Source of the DNA: a virus | Taxonomy: Duplodnaviria; Heunggongvirae; Uroviricota; Caudoviricetes | Strand: one strand, 5' to 3' | DNA length: 15,950 bases | IMG/VR virus record: IMGVR_UViG_2657245448_000017 | Part shown: positions 1-9,557 of the stretch, in pieces | Numbering within the stretch: the stretch's first letter is position 1 | Layout: each line of letters begins with the position of its first letter | The notes under the pieces: model-generated | Told to the model about the DNA's origin: nothing | Database searches by the model: none | The model's input: only the letters and a program-made list of their open reading frames with translations | Translations under genes and position numbers: made by a program

Positions 1-582
1 TCCCAGTTTAACCAATAACTCATCTCGATTTGGAATCATAAGCGCTTTTCCAGTCAAGCAACGTTTTCTGGTTCCTTGTTCAAGGGATAAAAAAACAGGG
101 TTGTTATTAAGTCTCTCAGTTATTATATCTTTTTGTTCATGATAAAAATCCAATGCTTTCGTATTATCACTAGATGTAAATAACTCAATTCTCTTTACAC
201 AATCATTCATGTGCATGACATTCAACTTTGCTGACCACTCCTCAGTTGAATCTGGATTCTCAGATAAATACATAAACAATAACTCAGCTTCCAGAATCGC
301 TCTTACATGAGGTGCAATCGCCGAAAAATCCCAAAAGTCATAATCCCGCTTAGCCCATCTTGATTTTGGTACGTTGGAAATCATTATTGAAGCATGAATG
401 CAGATTCGTGAAAAAATGTATGTAGACCACCCTTTAAAAGCCTCAGCCATTCGCACACCAACCCCCTGACTTACAGCATTCGCTTCACATACAGCTTTAT
501 CAAACTCCCTTAAGTAGTGATGGAAGTCATCCATCGAAAAATCGTTTCGTTCAAGTGGATTTTCGGGATTATCTATTTTCAT
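1..582 (-). CDS. Hypothetical AT-rich cargo (moron) protein; start codon present, C-terminus truncated by the window edge
   Basis: Open frame on the minus strand from ATG at 582..580 (hand-translated MKIDNPENPLERNDFSMDDFHHYLREF...) to position 1 with no stop, 194 codons. AGGTGA Shine-Dalgarno 3-4 nt upstream. About 40% GC against about 50% for neighbours. Absent from the ORF track, presumably because it runs off the edge. Confidence 0.5.
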   Translation of the reverse strand, partial: MKIDNPENPLERNDFSMDDFHHYLREFDKAVCEANAVSQGVGVRMAEAFKGWSTYIFSRICIHASIMISNVPKSRWAKRDYDFWDFSAIAPHVRAILEAELLFMYLSENPDSTEEWSAKLNVMHMNDCVKRIELFTSSDNTKALDFYHEQKDIITERLNNNPVFLSLEQGTRKRCLTGKALMIPNRDELLVKLG

Positions 583-2452: not shown

Positions 2453-3132
2453 GCGACCTGCCCCCTGGCAATGTGTTCTGCCCACAGTCCACCAATCCAG
2501 CGCACGCCTTTCGCAGTGAAACGTGCCTGGCTGAATGCATGATTTGAGGTTACGGATGTGCCGGTTTTCACTTCAAAACGGCCCGCATCAATATGCTGAT
2601 ACCGTGGGGTCATCGTTCCACCAAGGCGATACATGATGTCGTTCTCAAGGAGGAATAACCGCAGATCTGGCTCTTTTGCCTTAAGCAGTTTTGCCACCTG
2701 GCGGAATGACATTGACCCACTGGCTGTACAGTACCGATCAACAAACGCTACCTTCGGCGCCGCGGCAGCCAGTTCGTTAGTCAACTGCTGTTTTTGTTCT
2801 GCAAGGTCAGCGGCAAGACGTAGGGCTTCAGAGAATGATTGAGGAATCGTCTGCTGCTGTGCCTGCTCAAGCTCCTGCCAGCGATCAACCAGACGCGCGG
2901 TAAACTCCGGCGACAGCTGCGCGACAACGATATAACTGTCCCGCTTCCCTATCAGATAAACCGATACCGACTGATTGAGGTGATTTTTAACTTCCCCCAT
3001 TGGGGGGAGTTCAATAACACCGCGCTCTGCCAGGCGTTCAATGGACCGTTTAACATGGTCATGTCGTGATTCCACCAGCTCAGCAATATCGCTGCTGGAC
3101 ATGGTTAATGCTGTTGTTGCTAATTGGCTCAT
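2449..3132 (-). CDS. Rha-family regulator / antirepressor with KilA-C (ANT-like) C-terminal domain
   Basis: N-terminal MSQLATTALTMSSSDIAELVESRHDHVKRSIERL resembles the Rha domain; C-terminal half resembles KilAC antirepressor domains. Start chosen at ATG 3132 with GGAG six nt upstream; the track start at 3171 lacks an SD. Confidence 0.7.
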   Translation of the reverse strand: MSQLATTALTMSSSDIAELVESRHDHVKRSIERLAERGVIELPPMGEVKNHLNQSVSVYLIGKRDSYIVVAQLSPEFTARLVDRWQELEQAQQQTIPQSFSEALRLAADLAEQKQQLTNELAAAAPKVAFVDRYCTASGSMSFRQVAKLLKAKEPDLRLFLLENDIMYRLGGTMTPRYQHIDAGRFEVKTGTSVTSNHAFSQARFTAKGVRWIGGLWAEHIARGQVA

Positions 3133-3145
3133 ACTTTTCTCCATA

Positions 3146-3532
3146 TCAGGCGGCCGCACCCGCCGGTTCATATCTGCTGATCGTTATCTCTACCCGACCT
3201 TTCGGCACTACGGGTCCCCATTCCACCAGCATGCGCTTAATCTGGCTGTCATCTTCCCAGACACCCGCATGCGTCAGCGCGTCAAACAGGGCTTTGTTGT
3301 AATTATCGATATCCCGGCGGCGCGCATCCGGCGGGTACAGAGTGATTTCTACCGCAGCCAGTTCAGTCGATGGCTTCGGGAGACGTCGTAATTGCTCAAT
3401 GATCGCCACGCAGGCAGCGCTCTGGTATTTACGGCCTTCAGCGCTAATGAGGTGACGACCAGCCAGCGCCCCCTTGTTAGGAGCGCGCCAGTAAGTGTTC
3501 ACGCTGGGTGGAAATGGGAGTATGAGCCTCAT
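3146..3532 (-). CDS. rusA: Holliday junction resolvase RusA
   Basis: 128 aa with the N-terminal PPSVNTYW motif and RRRDIDNYNKALFDALT acidic catalytic region typical of RusA. GGAGG SD six nt upstream of the ATG. Confidence 0.9.
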   Translation of the reverse strand: MRLILPFPPSVNTYWRAPNKGALAGRHLISAEGRKYQSAACVAIIEQLRRLPKPSTELAAVEITLYPPDARRRDIDNYNKALFDALTHAGVWEDDSQIKRMLVEWGPVVPKGRVEITISRYEPAGAAA

Positions 3533-3646: not shown

Positions 3647-4969
3647 TCACGCATGAGTTACCCCCTGCATGCTGTCGACAAGACCACGCGCAATTGTGAT
3701 TATTTCGCTGGTGGACATTCGTTCCAGCCAGAGTTGATTGATGTTGGCTTTCAGCTTGTTCTGCTGTGATTCATCCAGCATGTCAGCACCATCCACCTGG
3801 TCGAATACAATTCCAACCTCCAGTGGCCATATACGGGACTCGGGAAGCTGATCGGCTACTGGTTTAGCTTTCTCACGGATGTGCATGCGGATCTGGCGAA
3901 TATTGGACCAACTGGAAACATCCAGGCTTCCCATAGCTGCAATGAAATCAGTACTGTTCATGCCATATTCACCAGATGCTTCAAGGGCAACAGTACGAAT
4001 ACGTTCCGACATATCCAGGCGCGCAGCAGCGTCATCGAATTCAATCGACAACAGCCACTCATCCACACCGAGCAAAATACTCTCACGAATAAGCAGCTTC
4101 GCTTTGTCGATCGTTAATGGTGATACCTGAGTGAATTCCGGTGCTTCGACAGAATCCGCCGCCCAGGTATGCCCAAACTTCGATTCACTGAATGTGTATT
4201 CTTCTTTATCGCCGAACGCAGCTCTAACGCATGCCCACGCCTCAACACCGCTGATATCAAAAATATCTTTCTGGGTAAGTGGCAACTCTGCTTCTGGCTT
4301 GTCAGCTACAGGTGGTGTGGCGGTTGCTGGCTGAGGTTTGCTGGTGGCAAACTGTGCCAAAGCCATAAACGCGCGCCCTTTTGTTTCCAGTTCTGTGCGG
4401 TTGATATAGCTGAATCGCTCGCCACGCCATGACTTATCGAATACAGCTATGGCTCCGGAAAAAAACGCGCTGGTGGGCTTCTGTTTTTCGTCAGCAGGTA
4501 CAAACCACACTGGCAGATCGAAACCAATGCGCCCGCGAATGAATACAATGTGATCGGCATCTTCCGGCCACCACGTTTCACTCGGCGCGGCTTTTATCAG
4601 GAATACATAGCGACCGCCCTTCTCGCGCTGGGTTGCTGCGTACTTCATGATGTGCGTCATACCAGTGATCGCCTGTTTCTCGTGGTACTGCGAGCGGCTA
4701 TATGGAGGGTTGGCAAAAGCCGCGCCACCCAGTTCTGCCAGACGTTCAGACCAGTCCTGCGTCAGTGCGTTATCTTCGGCGGTGTACCATGCCGGGCATT
4801 TCGCGTTGTCGTCGTCAGCAAACAAGTCCAGAACTAATGGACCAAATAGCGCGTTGATACCCCAGAAAAGCAGATCCGGTGTCCGCCACTGATCGCCAAC
4901 TTCTTTCAATTCGTGAGCTGGTTTTGAACGCAGTTCGGCCAGCGCGCGGCAGTATTTGTTTTCAATCAT
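3647..4969 (-). CDS. Phage Dam-like N6-adenine DNA methyltransferase fused to a C-terminal domain of unknown function (about 240 aa)
   Basis: N-terminal WRTPDLLF...LDLFADDDN...NPPY motifs match the phage Dam family. Total length 440 aa is roughly twice the usual size, and the C-terminal half has no motif I recognise. Confidence 0.8.
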   Translation of the reverse strand: MIENKYCRALAELRSKPAHELKEVGDQWRTPDLLFWGINALFGPLVLDLFADDDNAKCPAWYTAEDNALTQDWSERLAELGGAAFANPPYSRSQYHEKQAITGMTHIMKYAATQREKGGRYVFLIKAAPSETWWPEDADHIVFIRGRIGFDLPVWFVPADEKQKPTSAFFSGAIAVFDKSWRGERFSYINRTELETKGRAFMALAQFATSKPQPATATPPVADKPEAELPLTQKDIFDISGVEAWACVRAAFGDKEEYTFSESKFGHTWAADSVEAPEFTQVSPLTIDKAKLLIRESILLGVDEWLLSIEFDDAAARLDMSERIRTVALEASGEYGMNSTDFIAAMGSLDVSSWSNIRQIRMHIREKAKPVADQLPESRIWPLEVGIVFDQVDGADMLDESQQNKLKANINQLWLERMSTSEIITIARGLVDSMQGVTHA

Positions 4970-6239: not shown

Positions 6240-6788
6240 TTATTTCTCCATACTCGAAGAGTTGTTCGCCAAGGCGCCCGGAGCTGCACACTCGCGGGCG
6301 TCACTCTTTTCTGGAAGGCAGTAAACACGGGCAATCAAATTCAGAAAGGTCATCAGAGTTACCCTGAACTGATATGCAATGTCGTTAAGGCTCTGCCACT
6401 CACCCTTATCAACAACCCCATCGTCGATATACCAACGGTAAGCGTTGACCAGTTCTCCTAGACGCCCCACCAGCTCGGCCAGCTTTAAGCCAATTTCTTC
6501 GTTTTCGTCATCTGGCACCGCACCCGGAACGTGTATCCCGTTATCTGTTTGACGAGAAAACGCATCAGCTATGTAGCTGACACCGGCGGCTTTCTGTAAC
6601 ACCATCGCCCATCCCATAGGGAAGATCTGATCCCCGTCGACGCGAAGGCGGTTAAACAATGCGTTCTCTGTCACCCCCAACCATTCCGCCGCTTCGGCGT
6701 AGCCACCAGGCAGATCGGTAATCGTTTTTTTAATCGCTACCACCAGCCAGGCTGGCTGACGTTCGACTTTCCATTGCGGTTCGTTCAT
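6240..6788 (-). CDS. Putative CII-like lysogeny regulator (CP76-type) with N-terminal helix-turn-helix
   Basis: HTH-like segment GGYAEAAEWLGVTENALFNRLR and loose resemblance to phage 186 CII-type proteins. Start chosen at ATG 6788 with GGAG eight nt upstream; the track start at 6875 lacks an SD. Confidence 0.45.
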   Translation of the reverse strand: MNEPQWKVERQPAWLVVAIKKTITDLPGGYAEAAEWLGVTENALFNRLRVDGDQIFPMGWAMVLQKAAGVSYIADAFSRQTDNGIHVPGAVPDDENEEIGLKLAELVGRLGELVNAYRWYIDDGVVDKGEWQSLNDIAYQFRVTLMTFLNLIARVYCLPEKSDARECAAPGALANNSSSMEK

Positions 6789-6873
6789 TACTGCAACTCC
6801 ATTATTGGCGCCGAACTTCCTGACGGTGATAGCCTGCAAGCTCTCACACCAACAGAACCGAAGGAGGTTCGAC

Positions 6874-7110
6874 ATGTCTGTAAATTCACTGCCTTACGGC
6901 AAGTCTCCCGAAGAAGCCGCTCACGATCTGGCCATGAATCTTGTCTTGTCTGGTCACTTCAAAACATTCCAGAAGTCGCCAGAAGAGGTTTTTCAGTTGA
7001 TCACCAATGCAGAACTGGTCTTCAGTGAGCTTTACCGAAACAAACTGAAGGAAATAGAGTCCGCCAGATCAAAAGAAACCGAAGAGCAATATCAACGTAC
7101 GCAGTGCTAG
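6874..7110 (+). CDS. Hypothetical 78-aa protein encoded antisense to the early-right operon
   Basis: Near-consensus SD AAGGAGG (6861-6867) six nt before ATG 6874. Protein-like sequence MSVNSLPYGKSPEEAAHDLAMNLVLSGHF.... Its stop codon overlaps the stop of the convergent gene 7107..7352. Confidence 0.45.
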   Translation: MSVNSLPYGKSPEEAAHDLAMNLVLSGHFKTFQKSPEEVFQLITNAELVFSELYRNKLKEIESARSKETEEQYQRTQC

Positions 7111-7352
7111 CCATGAACAAACGAAAGATAGAACGTTGAATAACCACGGGCGGCGCTTTCAACTGCCGCCTGTATTTCCTCCGCGGATCTCCCTCTAAGG
7201 ATCATCTCGTTTATCAGCTCGCCAATAAGGGGAAGGACAATTGGCTGGAATGACATGTAAACCCGCATCTTTCCTTCGGAAATGGTTATTTGTCCTTCAT
7301 CGCTTTTAGCGGTCACGCTGTTTGTATCTTTTGTCTCGCTGCTGTTACCCAC
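7107..7352 (-). CDS. Hypothetical 81-aa protein downstream of cro
   Basis: GTG start at 7352 with GAGGAG six nt upstream; amphipathic helical-looking sequence; same strand and operon as cro. Confidence 0.4.
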   Translation of the reverse strand: MGNSSETKDTNSVTAKSDEGQITISEGKMRVYMSFQPIVLPLIGELINEMILRGRSAEEIQAAVESAARGYSTFYLSFVHG

Positions 7353-7381: not shown

Positions 7382-7624
7382 TTAAGCTGCTGAATCTGCA
7401 GACTTTTGGAAAACATCAGGACGCAGTCTTTCTTTTGGGATGCCAGTAACGCTCTCAATGTACTGAGATTGCTTTATTGGCGACCTTTTTTCTCTGTTGA
7501 GCCAGTTCCATACCTGTTGTTGTTTAACTTCCTTCCCGGAACTTGCAGTTAGTTTCCGGGCTAACTCAGACTGGCCACCAGCAGTTTCAATTGCCTCTGA
7601 AAGGGCTAACTGCTCAGGTGTCAT
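7382..7624 (-). CDS. cro: Cro-like HTH regulator (YdaS/Cro family)
   Basis: 80 aa from ATG 7624 with AGGAG seven nt upstream. Motif ETAGGQSELARKL...QQQVWNWL resembles Cro/YdaS-type HTH proteins. Divergent from the CI-like gene across an operator-rich spacer. Confidence 0.7.
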   Translation of the reverse strand: MTPEQLALSEAIETAGGQSELARKLTASSGKEVKQQQVWNWLNREKRSPIKQSQYIESVTGIPKERLRPDVFQKSADSAA

Positions 7625-7761: not shown

Positions 7762-8448
7762 GTGAATACACTTGCGGAACGACTAAAAATAGCTAGAGAG
7801 AAGAAAGGCATGAGCCAGGCTCAGTTAGCCGAGCTAATAGGCCTGTCTCAACAATCTGTGGCGAAAATTGAAAATGGAGATACGCTTCAACCTAGAAAGA
7901 TCAAAGATATTGCGAAAGCTTTAGATGTATCCCAAAAATGGCTACAGCTCGGAATTGAGGAGAATGGCTCTATTTCTGATTTTGTAGTTGAGGAACTTGA
8001 AGAAGCAAAACTTGATCCTGAAGTATTTGCCAACATACCCGTTCTCGATGTTGAGTTCTCTGCTGGCAATGGATGTGAAGCCGAAATTGTGGAATCAGTT
8101 GTTGATTCGTTCCCTCTTCGTCGTTTCGATCTTAGAAAAGCTGGAGTCAGTCCTGCTAACGCAAGAATCGTAAAGATTTGGGGCAACAGCCTTTTGCCAG
8201 TATTGAATAATGGGGATCATGTCGCGATTGACATGTCACAGTCGAAACCTATCAGAGATGGTGATTTATACGCTGTTAGAGATGGAGTTTTACTTCGAGT
8301 TAAAGTTCTTATCAATCAACCAGATGGTGGTTTGATACTGCGGAGTTTCAACAAAGAAGAGTACCCGGATGAAGTACTCAACTTTGATGAAAGAAGAGCC
8401 AGAATACACGTTATTGGTCGCGTGTTCTGGTCTTCACGTTCATGGTAG
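7762..8448 (+). CDS. cI: CI-like prophage repressor (N-terminal HTH, C-terminal LexA/S24-type autocleavage domain)
   Basis: HTH QAQLAELIGLSQQSVAKIENG. C-terminal domain with Ala-Gly site (FSAGNG), Ser in GNSLLP and Lys in LLRVKVL, alignable to lambda CI. Start chosen at GTG 7762 after GGGGG (7750-7754), giving 228 aa; the upstream TTG at 7654 lies in the operator region. Confidence 0.85.
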   Translation: MNTLAERLKIAREKKGMSQAQLAELIGLSQQSVAKIENGDTLQPRKIKDIAKALDVSQKWLQLGIEENGSISDFVVEELEEAKLDPEVFANIPVLDVEFSAGNGCEAEIVESVVDSFPLRRFDLRKAGVSPANARIVKIWGNSLLPVLNNGDHVAIDMSQSKPIRDGDLYAVRDGVLLRVKVLINQPDGGLILRSFNKEEYPDEVLNFDERRARIHVIGRVFWSSRSW

Positions 8449-9321
8449 AGCGTGAAAAAGCATTTCTTCTGAAATGATTTTTAACTTAGCCCCTTCATCA
8501 TCTCTATATGAGACTGCTTTTTCTATTTTCCTTCCGTGACTGGAGAACTTCCAGTCACGCGAGGAAAGAGTACCAATTACGAGAAAATCAATTCTCTTTG
8601 TGATTCCGCTGGAAATCAGTCCATTATTCTTTTTAATTAGGTCTTCAACATGTGCTCTCTTTCCTGCCAAAAAAACACCCGTTAAGCAAAATGTTTTATT
8701 TTCAACAGAAACTTCAGCAGTATTATCTAATGGTAATTTAGTAGAAAGCCCATCTACGACGCCGCTTGCAAGGTCACAACCAGTAAAATCTACCAGCGCC
8801 TTGTGTAGATTTTCACTTTCTTCAGTGGTGATGATCCCATCGCTCAGAATCTCTTTTACTAAAGCGTATAGTTCCTTTCCTGGATAATTACTTTTTAGCG
8901 CCCCGTTCTGTGTTAACCACCAGTCCAGGTATCTCACTTCTTCTTCACTTAAGGTTCGATCTGATATTAAACCCTTGCAAAGACCATTCAACAGATGCAG
9001 ATCTGACTCACTGGAGAATAAATCCACATCGGGTATATCGAGTATTTGTCTTTGTATATCATTAAGATGCAGTTTTAATTCACCACGCTCATCATCAGAA
9101 ACAACACCATCGGCCAGTATTTTAGAAACCCTAACACTTAGACTCTTGATAACACCATTTCTAATGGTTTGGTTGGCTTCAAGTAGCCAAGTATCAAGAT
9201 ATAGCACCTCTTCATCCCGCACATGTCCATCGGCAAGAATCCCATCAATAATGCTGATTAAATTTGCAAAAAGCTTATTTCTATTTTGTGTGTAGTTAAA
9301 AACGTAGAGCTTGTCTTCCAT
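8440..9321 (-). CDS. Tandem TerB-like repeat protein with C-terminal BRCT domain (uncharacterised)
   Basis: 293 aa from ATG 9321 with AAGGAGG four nt upstream. Four copies of an (I/L)L(A/S)DGxxx(D/E)EExxxL motif resembling the paired motifs of TerB domains. C-terminal 80 aa (KTFCLTGVF...IDFLVIGT...) aligns by eye to the LigA BRCT domain. Convergent with cI, overlapping it by 9 bp. Confidence 0.7.
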   Translation of the reverse strand: MEDKLYVFNYTQNRNKLFANLISIIDGILADGHVRDEEVLYLDTWLLEANQTIRNGVIKSLSVRVSKILADGVVSDDERGELKLHLNDIQRQILDIPDVDLFSSESDLHLLNGLCKGLISDRTLSEEEVRYLDWWLTQNGALKSNYPGKELYALVKEILSDGIITTEESENLHKALVDFTGCDLASGVVDGLSTKLPLDNTAEVSVENKTFCLTGVFLAGKRAHVEDLIKKNNGLISSGITKRIDFLVIGTLSSRDWKFSSHGRKIEKAVSYRDDEGAKLKIISEEMLFHALP

Positions 9322-9557
9322 ACAGCCTCCTTTTTTGAACATCCTTACATTCAGACGCCCCACAATCAAACCACATAAAGTTGTTGACATAACCATTATT
9401 CACAACTAAATTACACCTTAAAGTTGTTATTACGATTTACAACATTACAACTAGCCATAAGCAACAGCGAACAGGCAGGACGCCCACGAAGTAGCCGCCG
9501 GTGGCGTATGAATAACCGGATGATTCGCTCAATAAAGTTAGGTAGGGGAATTTCACG
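9322..9557. promoter_or_regulatory. OL/PL-like operator-promoter region
   Basis: Plus-strand promoter with -35 TTGACA (9384-9389), 17-bp spacer and -10 TAAATT (9407-9412). Operator 8-mer AAAGTTGT at 9377-9384 and 9420-9427, plus partial copies at 9402-9410 and 9447-9452. Confidence 0.55.

What the first reader, a model, noticed from the sequence alone, without database searches (positions are those of the whole stretch)
6789..7352. Antisense gene with near-consensus SD embedded in the early-right operon, convergent with and overlapping a minus-strand gene
The plus-strand ORF 6874-7110 has the strongest SD in the window (AAGGAGG, 6-nt spacer) yet lies opposite to all neighbouring early genes. 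Its stop codon overlaps the stop of the convergent gene 7107-7352 (shared positions 7107-7110), and its start codon overlaps, on the opposite strand, the far 5-prime ATG of the CII-like ORF. Convergent transcription here could regulate readthrough from PR into the CII-like and replication genes, or the pair could be a small toxin-antitoxin or regulatory module.
Basis: partly seen in the sequence, partly recalled or inferred. Interest (0 to 1): 0.4.

Follow-up and report, generated by a model that had tools for sequence, protein, structure and literature searches.

The report
Antisense accessory gene cassette in prophage
The plus-strand ORF is a real, conserved 78-aa gene that sits backwards inside a prophage's early lytic operon. 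It is driven by a ~70-nt leader that also precedes at least eight unrelated genes at the same slot in other enterobacterial prophages, so it looks like a swappable accessory-gene cassette of unknown function.

Summary
ORF-A (6874-7110, +) has AAGGAGG six nt before its ATG. It shares the palindrome CTAG (7107-7110) as stop with the convergent ORF-B (7352-7107, -). It lies between a cro-like and a cII/YmfL-like gene.

A is a real gene. Homologues of 45-77% identity exist in Salmonella and E. coli prophages, and dN/dS is about 0.05-0.3 in its frame only.

A almost always sits tail-to-tail with a B-family gene, in prophages with different immunity and replication modules. A related E. coli prophage has cro directly beside ymfL, so B + A + leader form a ~570-bp indel.

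The main new point is the 68 nt upstream of A (6806-6873). This stretch is more conserved than A itself. It also precedes at least 8 unrelated 'cargo' families at the same antisense slot. Its invariant TAnnYT lies 16-18 nt after an invariant TGGnGCC and 36-39 nt before the ATG, which is promoter-like geometry. A GC-rich hairpin 35 nt after A's stop looks like its terminator.

Best reading: an autonomous moron-type unit with a portable leader and a cognate convergent partner. The functions of A and B are unknown; no Pfam, PHROG, PADLOC, PDB or BFVD match was found. A toxin-antitoxin reading has no support. Transcription, timing and any A-B interaction are inferred, not shown.

The parts
6806..6873 (+). 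Conserved portable leader (candidate promoter plus 5' UTR) of ORF-A. Sequence: TGGCGCCGAACTTCCTGACGGTGATAGCCTGCAAGCTCTCACACCAACAGAACCGAAGGAGGTTCGAC.
   Evidence: Homology between loci starts at TGGYGCC and ends at the ATG. The same 67-79-nt element precedes at least 8 unrelated ORF families. There are 52 unique versions with three invariant blocks.
6806..6812 (+). Invariant block TGGnGCC at the position of a -35 element. It is non-consensus: 2 of 6 matches to TTGACA.
   Evidence: Invariant in 23 and in 52 leaders. It lies 16-18 nt upstream of the TAnnYT hexamer in 51 of 52 leaders.
6830..6835 (+). TAGCCT, a candidate -10 hexamer (TAnnYT), preceded by TGn at 6827-6829.
   Evidence: T, A, C/T and T are invariant inside an otherwise variable stretch, in 52 of 52 unique leaders. 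The hexamer lies 36-39 nt before the ATG. TGn is present in 21 of 52. The strict sigma-70 consensus scan found nothing.
6812..6821 (+). 5' arm (CGAACTTCCT) of an inverted repeat complementary to the SD region. An inner CGGT at 6824-6827 pairs with ACCG at 6857-6860.
   Evidence: RNAalifold gives 10+4 pairs. There is one compensatory AU-to-GC change in L001. G-U wobble changes are tolerated on the plus strand in the window, L030 and L005.
6861..6871 (+). Shine-Dalgarno AAGGAGG (6861-6867). From 6862 (AGGAGGTTCG, 6862-6871) the same bases form the 3' arm of the inverted repeat. A local alternative hairpin GAACC/GGTTC is also possible.
6874..7110 (+). ORF-A: a 78-aa protein predicted as a short helix, a loop and a long helix. 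Its family is restricted to Salmonella and E. coli prophages.
   Evidence: 15 homologue clusters. dN/dS is 0.05-0.3 in frame 1 against about 1 or more in four of the five other frames; the wobble-sharing antisense frame is also low but is closed by stops. AF2 pLDDT is 86.5. No Pfam, PHROG, NCBIfam, PADLOC, PDB or BFVD match.
7107..7352 (-). ORF-B: an 81-aa early-operon protein just downstream of cro. It has a disordered N-terminus and a helical hairpin, and is the cognate convergent partner of A.
   Evidence: Homologues. AF2. A B-family gene is the convergent neighbour in 11 of 13 distinct A combinations. Profile-profile similarity to A: P = 1.7e-4, and 0 of 300 column shuffles reach the real score.
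7146..7182 (+). GC-rich hairpin ACGGGCGGCG-CTTTCAAC-TGCCGCCTGT (10 bp) followed by ATTTCCTCC. It is the candidate intrinsic terminator of the A transcript and is embedded in B's codons for QAAVESAA.
   Evidence: Found 35-36 nt after A's stop in 7 of 9 distinct A loci. Ala codons GCC GCC in 14 of 15 B genes; the exception is the tail-cluster relative L033. Changes in L001 and L017/18 keep a perfect stem on the A-sense strand but create mismatches on the B-sense strand. The hairpin is absent from the distant B-like gene in a tail cluster. It is the dominant local fold.
6240..6788 (-). cII/YmfL-like gene, the next early gene. It is divergent from A, and its real start is at 6788.
   Evidence: phrog_101 at 7.5e-43, covering residues 3-181; Phage_CP76 weak.
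7382..7624 (-). cro/YdaS-like gene, upstream of B in the early-right operon.
   Evidence: YdaS_toxin (Cro-type HTH) at 4.4e-13.

Best explanation
ORF-A is a genuine small protein gene carried on a self-contained, backwards-facing accessory ('moron'-type) transcription unit inside the early-right (PR) operon of a lambdoid prophage. The proposed unit is:
- a conserved ~68-nt leader (6806-6873) supplying a promoter-like TGGnGCC-N16-18-TAnnYT and a near-perfect ribosome binding site;
- the A coding sequence (6874-7110);
- a GC-rich hairpin with a U-rich tail (7146-7182) that lies inside the convergent gene B.

B + A + leader form a ~570-bp indel between cro and the cII/YmfL-like gene. The leader is a portable element: in other Enterobacterales prophages the same leader, at the same slot and in the same antisense orientation, drives at least eight unrelated cargo families. 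Most of these have their own specific convergent partner gene.

Shown: A is coding and under selection; A pairs with B; the module is an indel; the leader is shared and has invariant blocks; the hairpin is conserved.

Inferred: A is transcribed from its own promoter while PR is repressed, that is, in the lysogen. When PR fires, B is made and convergent transcription and antisense pairing across the tail-to-tail junction turn A down. A and B, which look like distant paralogous helical hairpins, act on each other or on a common target. The biochemical function of A is unknown.
For: - Real gene. Homologues at 45-77% identity. dN/dS is 0.05-0.3 in frame 1 against about 1 or more in four of the five other frames. 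The wobble-sharing antisense frame is also low, but the minus strand opposite A is closed by stops. The AF2 model is confident, pLDDT 86.5.
- Module. A and B lie tail-to-tail in prophages with different cI/cro, with or without YdaT, and with different replication genes. A B-family gene is the convergent neighbour in 11 of 13 distinct combinations. A related E. coli prophage has cro and ymfL 22 nt apart with nothing between.
- Leader. It is nearly identical even where the A proteins are only about 45% identical. It is found in 98 viral and 51 metagenome contigs ahead of at least 8 unrelated ORF families. Leader subtypes are shuffled among cargo families.
- Promoter-like geometry. TAnnYT is invariant in 52 of 52 leaders, 16-18 nt after TGGnGC and 36-39 nt before the ATG.
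- Orientation. Flanking genes on the leader side are minus-dominant in 102 of 153 loci and plus-dominant in 3.
- Terminator-like hairpin. It is conserved, and its wobble changes favour the A-sense strand.
- Literature. Genes antisense to lytic operons with their own promoter are the transcriptional signature of prophage accessory loci (PMC7067206).
Against: - There are no transcript data. The strict sigma-70 scan finds no promoter, and the -35-position block matches TTGACA at only 2 of 6 positions.
- The 9-10-nt complementarity between the -35/spacer region and the SD region has one compensatory change and plus-strand wobble changes. This suggests an RNA helix. That helix needs a transcript starting upstream of 6812, which conflicts with a start downstream of TAGCCT.
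- The hairpin's U-tract is weak (UAUUUCCUC), and the 101-nt region does not fold better than shuffles (z = -0.17).
- The hairpin could partly be a by-product of B's AAVxxAA motif.
- A-B co-occurrence could reflect physical linkage only. B also occurs with a different cargo/partner pair and without A (L016, L104).
- The A-B similarity is weak (hhalign probability 49%).
Confidence: 0.6

Rival explanations
1. Antidote pair with toxin-antitoxin or self-immunity logic. One of the two small proteins harms the host or phage growth. For example, A could be a lysogen-expressed exclusion factor. The other, B, is made first from PR on induction and neutralises it by direct binding. The convergent arrangement gives mutually exclusive expression.
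For: Cargo families and their convergent partner families pair almost one-to-one: fam0-P0 in 21 of 22, fam4-P3 in 9 of 9, A-B in 11 of 13. A and B co-diverge. Both are predicted as helix-loop-helix proteins, with profile similarity P = 1.7e-4 and 0 of 300 shuffles reaching the real score, which would fit heterodimerisation.
Against: Neither protein matches any toxin, antitoxin or defence family, and there are no structural matches. Type II TA genes form a co-directional autoregulated operon, whereas these converge. Neither protein has a membrane segment as type I toxins do. Cargo family 1 lies directly beside cro with no dedicated partner. B occurs without A.
Confidence: 0.2
2. The leader is mainly an RNA switch. 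The 5' arm (6812-6821) pairs with the SD (6862-6871) and keeps A untranslated until the helix is opened by temperature, processing, an antisense or small RNA, or a switch to the local GAACC/GGTTC hairpin. Transcription would start at or upstream of 6806.
For: A 10+4-bp consensus helix covers the SD, with MFE -24.1 kcal/mol. There is one compensatory AU-to-GC pair in L001, and three independent single changes give G-U on the plus strand. A 9-nt perfect complement within 70 nt is unlikely by chance. Three GAACC-type motifs allow alternative pairings.
Against: Both arms are almost invariant, so covariation is minimal. With 23 leaders only 8 pairs survive, at -7.5 kcal/mol. The z-score is only -1.84. 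Sequence homology stops at 6806, so no conserved promoter exists upstream to make such a transcript. The invariant TAnnYT would then be an unexplained loop motif. L053 and the invariant C6/A67 position instead fit the minus strand.
Confidence: 0.25
3. A's protein is incidental. The unit works in cis as a convergent promoter that dampens PR read-through into the cII-like and replication genes by transcriptional interference or antisense RNA, like a protein-coding counterpart of lambda oop.
For: The geometry fits: an antisense unit between cro-proximal genes and cII/replication genes, whose 3' end overlaps the 3' end of the upstream early gene. PR transcripts must cross 318 nt that are untranslated on the minus strand.
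Against: There is strong purifying selection on the A protein, and a near-perfect RBS is conserved in all 52 leaders. Eight unrelated cargo proteins are kept at the slot, which a purely cis-acting device would not need. The untranslated minus-strand gap is not C-rich, so it is not an obvious Rho entry site.
Confidence: 0.1
4. The leader is the phage's establishment promoter, equivalent to lambda PRE. Activated by the cII-like protein, it would read antisense through B and cro into cI, and A would simply be the first ORF on that transcript.
For: A points towards cI and lies upstream of it on the same strand, next to the start of the cII-like gene, as PRE does in lambda. The -35 position is non-consensus, as in activator-dependent promoters.
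Against: The leader is invariant next to quite different neighbours (YmfL-like, an MNPTDFI... family, replication genes) and in phages whose CII equivalent is YdaT. In YdaT phages PRE has been mapped between ydaS and ydaT, upstream of this slot (PMC9986795). No repeated activator half-sites flank the -35 block. A conserved hairpin follows A.
Confidence: 0.07

Closest known systems
Prophage morons / accessory loci (Hendrix-Juhala concept; for example lambda bor and lom, and ST64B STMMW_20121 in PMC7067206)
   Same: An extra gene inserted between conserved phage genes and absent from a close relative. It is oriented against the surrounding lytic operon and has its own promoter-like and terminator-like signals, plus a very strong RBS.
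   Different: Here the expression signals are one conserved ~70-nt leader shared by at least 8 unrelated cargo families at one fixed slot, downstream of cro in the PR operon. The cargo usually travels with a specific convergent partner gene of the lytic operon. I found no description of such a shared leader: a full-text search for the sequence returned nothing. Expression in lysogens is not shown.
Lambda oop RNA / pO (and OOP-BTP1, PMC7067206)
   Same: A short transcription unit antisense to the PR operon in the cII-replication region. Its 3' end overlaps the 3' end of the upstream early gene.
   Different: oop is a 77-nt non-coding RNA with no ORF. Here a 78-aa protein under purifying selection with a perfect SD is encoded, and there is no Rfam match.
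Lambda PRE / CP-933P PRE933P (CII- or YdaT-activated establishment promoter)
   Same: A leftward-type promoter near the cII start that points through cro towards cI, with a poor -35.
   Different: The leader does not vary with the type of CII. The mapped PRE of YdaT phages lies elsewhere (PMC9986795). A hairpin follows the ORF.
Type II toxin-antitoxin modules
   Same: Two small, co-inherited, co-diverging genes in a prophage.
   Different: The genes are convergent rather than an operon. There is no DNA-binding antitoxin domain, no toxin fold, and no family match.
Integron gene cassettes (attC)
   Same: Many unrelated small ORFs, each joined to one conserved imperfect inverted-repeat element, exchanged at a fixed slot.
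   Different: The element lies upstream of the ORF and carries the promoter and RBS. Its arms (GCCGAAC / GTTCGAC) each miss the RYYYAAC / GTTRRRY cores by one base. Homology runs up to the ATG. No integrase lies beside the slot in the window; other loci were not screened. Exchange is more likely by homologous recombination.

Membership tests
Protein-coding gene (as opposed to a chance ORF) | The ORF is conserved in homologous regions, with synonymous changes far exceeding non-synonymous ones in this frame only. | tested here: met
   pS about 0.6-0.75 against pN 0.12-0.3. dN/dS is 0.05-0.3 in frame 1 and about 1 or more in four alternative frames.
Prophage moron | Present or absent between conserved flanking genes in related phages. 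| tested here: met
   The E. coli SCU-124 prophage has cro and ymfL 22 nt apart, whereas the window has 593 nt between them.
Prophage moron | Own promoter upstream. | tested here: inconclusive
   An invariant TAnnYT lies 16-18 nt from TGGnGC and 36-39 nt from the ATG in 52 leaders. However, there is no consensus -35, the strict scan finds nothing, and no transcript data exist.
Prophage moron | Own terminator downstream. | tested here: inconclusive
   A conserved 10-bp GC-rich hairpin with a U-rich tail lies 35 nt after the stop. The U-tract is weak and the fold z-score is not significant.
Prophage moron | Expressed from the repressed prophage. | not testable with these tools
   Needs RNA-seq or reporters in a lysogen.
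Type II toxin-antitoxin | Co-directional two-gene operon with recognisable toxin and antitoxin domains. | tested here: not met
   The genes are convergent. No Pfam, NCBIfam or PADLOC hit. No fold match.
Type I toxin-antitoxin / antisense RNA such as oop | A non-coding antisense RNA, or a small hydrophobic toxin. | tested here: not met
   A is a soluble, charged helical protein under selection. No Rfam family matches.
Lambda-type PRE | Promoter specific to the phage's own CII-type activator and reading into cI. | tested here: not met
   The leader is invariant across different CII types and neighbours. PRE of YdaT phages maps between ydaS and ydaT (PMC9986795). Read-through into cI was not tested.
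SD-sequestering RNA switch or thermometer | A helix covering the SD, supported by covariation. | tested here: inconclusive
   One compensatory pair and three plus-strand wobble changes. The arms are otherwise invariant, and the energy is modest.
Integron cassette | attC with RYYYAAC/GTTRRRY cores downstream of a promoterless ORF, with an integrase nearby. | tested here: not met
   The element lies upstream of the ORF, the cores are mismatched, and no integrase is seen beside the slot in the window.

The most novel reading that the evidence does not exclude
The ~70-nt leader marks a previously undescribed hypervariable 'antisense slot' in the early-right operon of Enterobacterales lambdoid prophages. 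It would be a portable promoter/RBS element with an inverted repeat that acts both as an expression signal and as a recombination handle. Behind it, unrelated cargo genes are swapped, each with a cognate convergent partner transcribed from PR. Cargo would be made in the lysogen and the partner on induction. Together they would form a general two-state switch, for example anti-phage exclusion with built-in self-immunity, of which A/B is the smallest member.
Probability: 0.3. Interest if true: 0.7.

Novelty: new variant of a known kind. Interest (0 to 1): 0.5.

Why it matters
If the leader is a portable promoter/RBS, a single 20-nt pattern finds a whole set of uncharacterised, probably lysogen-expressed prophage genes. 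At least eight families turned up, all of unknown function. Their cognate lytic-operon partners come with them. Such positions in prophages have repeatedly yielded defence, exclusion and host-modulating functions.

The conserved convergent, stop-overlapping architecture is also a compact natural case for studying transcriptional interference between a lysogenic and a lytic promoter. The inverted repeat that links the -35 region to the SD is an unexplained regulatory feature that simple reporter mutagenesis could test.

For annotation, A-family genes and their leader are often uncalled or mis-called. In this window the neighbouring cII-like ORF is over-extended across the leader by the longest-ORF rule.

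Tried and rejected
- Chance ORF: rejected by conservation and dN/dS.
- Known family for A or B: none. Pfam, also at E up to 10 over all family members; PHROGs; NCBIfam; PADLOC (70); tblastn against 50,697 phage genomes; Foldseek against PDB and BFVD (57-59); and a 1.8-billion-protein profile search for B that gave 11 clusters.
- AriR/YmgB-like resemblance of A's 'NLVLSG' motif: recalled from memory only, with no Pfam or structural support. Dropped.
- Rfam family in the leader or window: none.
- Sigma-54 (TGGCAC-N5-TTGC): the GG is present, but the -12 GC is replaced by an invariant CC. Rejected by inspection.
- Sigma-E, sigma-32, sigma-28, LexA box, CRP site: none is conserved across leaders (inspection).
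- Minus-strand promoter in the leader: the reverse complement of the invariant hexamer (AGnnTA) lacks the -10 signature. Rejected.
- Rho-entry (tR1-like) reading of the 318-nt gap that is untranslated on the minus strand: the C/G ratio is 1 or less, so there is no support.
- PRE reading: see the rival explanations.
- Leader in sequenced phages or complete E. coli genomes: absent, apart from one 30-nt partial match in an Actinobacillus phage. It is also absent from the ST64B immunity region.
- One genome-per-species scan with the A profile found nothing. The pattern scan found only Xenorhabdus and Trabulsiella among real hits.
- Paralogy of the other cargo/partner pairs: no similarity.

Full report
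**Setting.** The window carries a lambdoid immunity region.
- The cI-like repressor (HTH_3 + Peptidase_S24) lies at 7762-8448 on the plus strand.
- The early-right operon lies on the minus strand. It comprises a cro/YdaS-like gene (7624-7382), ORF-B (7352-7107), a cII/YmfL-like gene (phrog_101; real start 6788, ending at 6240), a phrog_1170 gene, a Phg_2220_C replication gene and a Dam methyltransferase.
- ORF-A (6874-7110) is the only plus-strand gene inside this run.

**Observation.**
- AAGGAGG lies at 6861-6867, six nt before the ATG.
- The stops of A and B share the palindrome CTAG at 7107-7110.
- A 211-aa minus-strand ORF does begin with an ATG at 6875.

Two corrections apply.
- AAGGAGG occurs three times in the window. 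One copy precedes another real gene start, the BRCT-like gene with its ATG at 9321.
- The cII-like gene starts at 6788. The 29 extra codons lie over a non-coding element that is conserved next to unrelated neighbours.

**A is a real gene.**
- Searches of 5.8 billion proteins gave 15 clusters, all from Salmonella or E. coli, at 45-99% identity.
- Nei-Gojobori comparison of five diverged copies gives pS of 0.6-0.75 against pN of 0.12-0.3. That is dN/dS of about 0.05-0.3 in the annotated frame.
- Four of the five other frames give about 1 or more. The fifth, the wobble-sharing antisense frame, is also low, but the minus strand opposite A is closed by stops.
- AlphaFold2 on a 13-sequence alignment gives pLDDT 86.5, with a short helix (12-25), a loop and a long helix (36-76).
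- A has no match in Pfam, PHROGs, NCBIfam, PADLOC, the phage genome collection, PDB or BFVD.

**A and B form a module.**
- B is also a small narrow family: 15 clusters and 11 representative clusters among 1.8 billion proteins. It is predicted as a disordered N-terminus plus a helical hairpin.
- Wherever an A homologue was found, a B homologue lies tail-to-tail with it. The junction varies from a 72-nt overlap to a gap of about 35 nt (median a 4-nt overlap).
- This holds in prophages that differ in cI/cro type, in the presence of YdaT, and in replication genes.
- Over all distinct combinations, the convergent neighbour of an A-family cargo is a B-family gene in 11 of 13.
- A related E. coli prophage, with the same kind of cI and BRCT neighbour, has cro and ymfL 22 nt apart. 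B + A + leader are therefore a ~570-bp indel.
- B can occur without A, but then another cargo/partner pair follows it (L016, L104).
- Profile-profile comparison aligns A17-59 with B45-81, at the end of helix 1, a Gly cap and an S-x-E-E N-cap of helix 2. P is 1.7e-4. The real score is 22.6, against 10.6 ± 2.4 for 300 column shuffles and 9.7 for the reversed profile. This fits distant paralogy or a shared helical-hairpin motif, but it is weak.

**The leader.**
- Aligning the upstream regions showed that homology starts abruptly at TGGYGCC (6806) and runs to the ATG. This stretch is about 95% identical between modules whose A proteins share only about 45%.
- I scanned public collections for its 3' part, and then for both ends.
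- The full 67-79-nt element turned up in front of at least eight unrelated ORF families. These include phrog_5286 (about 150 aa), phrog_4753 (about 99 aa), a ~152-aa family, phrog_36733 (131 aa, with a hydrophobic N-terminus) and several 68-88-aa families. All are of unknown function.
- Hosts include Xenorhabdus and Trabulsiella as well as many isolate-derived viral contigs.
- In every locus inspected, the cargo has the same place and orientation as A. It diverges from the next early gene and points towards cro and cI.
- Leader subtypes are shuffled among cargo families.
- Cargo families pair almost one-to-one with their convergent partner families.
- Three blocks are invariant across 52 unique leaders: TGGnGCCGAACC, TAnnYT, and ACCG(A)AGGAGGTTCGACATG.
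- The hexamer sits in otherwise variable sequence, 16-18 nt after TGGnGC and 36-39 nt before the ATG, and 21 of 52 copies have TGn in front. That is sigma-70 geometry with a classical -10 signature and a non-consensus -35. The strict consensus scan finds nothing.
- The first and third blocks are complementary: CGAACYTCCT pairs with AGGAGGTTCG, which would bury the SD.
- This helix has one compensatory AU-to-GC pair, and three independent changes give G-U on the plus strand.
- Both arms are otherwise invariant, and my pattern scans fixed them. A transcript starting after the hexamer would lack the 5' arm. I could not resolve this conflict. Promoter and RNA switch may both be true, or the repeat may act on DNA or on the minus-strand transcript.

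**Terminator-like hairpin.**
- A 10-bp GC-rich hairpin (7146-7173) followed by AUUUCCUCC lies 35 nt after A's stop, inside B's codons for QAAVESAA.
- It recurs in 7 of 9 distinct A loci.
- The second Ala pair is GCC GCC in every B gene found in this early-operon context (14 of 15).
- Changes in L001 and L017/18 keep a perfect stem on the A-sense strand but create mismatches on the B-sense strand.
- A distant B-like gene in a tail cluster is the one exception and lacks the hairpin.
- The U-tract is weak, and the region as a whole does not fold better than shuffles. It remains a candidate only.

**What it is not.**
- No toxin-antitoxin, defence or RNA family matches.
- The leader is not the PRE equivalent. 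It does not vary with the CII type, and in YdaT phages PRE has been mapped between ydaS and ydaT (PMC9986795).
- The untranslated minus-strand gap is not C-rich.
- The leader is absent from 50,697 sequenced phage genomes, from 5,426 complete E. coli genomes and from the literature library.

**Interpretation.**
- The best-supported reading is an autonomous moron-type unit of leader, A and hairpin, with B as its cognate partner. It is one member of a cassette system at a fixed antisense slot of the PR operon.
- Expression in the lysogen, shut-off by convergent PR transcription, and an A-B protein interplay are all inferences. They rest on the geometry, on the pairing statistics and on the known transcriptional signature of accessory loci (PMC7067206).
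- The function of A remains unknown.

Noticed in passing
L080, L089, L084, L104, L107, L111 (for example L089 cargo 2501-2974 +, partner 2706-3161 -, in the oriented ~6-kb excerpt of L089 used (cargo ATG set at 2501), not L089's own numbering): Cargo families 0 and 4 overlap their convergent partner ORFs antisense by 140-323 nt, and the overlap persists across diverged copies. Either these are long, genuinely overlapping antisense genes, or the partner ORFs are over-extended shadow ORFs.
   Followed up: partly
window 6806-6876, minus strand: Read on the minus strand, the leader forms an 11-12-bp helix (GUCGAACCUCC / GGAGGUUCGGC) followed directly by N-CCA. The only variable base in the TGGnGCC block is at the 'discriminator' position. 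This resembles a tRNA acceptor/T-arm minihelix, the kind of substrate RNase P recognises. I did not run a tRNA search on the window. It may be coincidence.
   Followed up: no
window 8440-9321 (-) and 9326-9332: A BRCT-like gene converges on cI, and its ORF overlaps cI's 3' end by 9 nt (8440-8448). It has its own AAGGAGG five nt before the ATG at 9321. It looks like a second antisense accessory gene with a stop-region overlap. The same gene flanks cI in L001, L012 and E. coli SCU-124.
   Followed up: partly
L017 about 456-483 (minus strand): The A homologue there is broken by a frameshift in a run of nine C's (…AACGGAACCCCCCCCCGAAGAA…). This could be an assembly error, a pseudogene or a slippery tract.
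   Followed up: no
P0031 (215 aa): This protein has an N-terminal B domain (residues 1-79, E = 4e-44) fused to a 135-aa extension of unknown nature. A lost stop codon at the tail-to-tail junction is one possible cause.
   Followed up: no
L033 3001-3204: A distant B-like protein (P0037, E = 1e-7) is encoded between the tail tube and tail assembly chaperone genes of a myovirus-like cluster. It has no A partner and lacks the GC hairpin.
   Followed up: partly
L001 3720-3920, L084, L089, L107, L111, L035, L090: The early gene just beyond the leader is often a small protein starting M(N/T/S)P(T/E)(D/T)FI(A/R)KH… followed by …ALVAEGF. This unannotated family replaces the cII/YmfL-like gene at that position.
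   Followed up: no
L038, L039, L051, L064, L068, L074-L078 and others: The 3' leader pattern also hits a repeated sequence in Akkermansiaceae/Verrucomicrobia contigs, followed by an ORF beginning MKGMSARCATLMSL…. This is unrelated to the prophage leader. It is probably a conserved non-coding sequence that happens to contain the motif.
   Followed up: no
window 3647-4969 (-): This 440-aa ORF has a Dam domain only in residues 19-199. The C-terminal 240 aa have no Pfam match. Related loci split it or vary its length (250, 439 or 440 aa).
   Followed up: no
L016 6444-7077, L026 1822-2455, L028 1750-2455: A TumE + HVO_A0114 gene pair is likewise oriented against the early operon, further downstream. 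It is another antisense accessory pair in the same prophage group.
   Followed up: no
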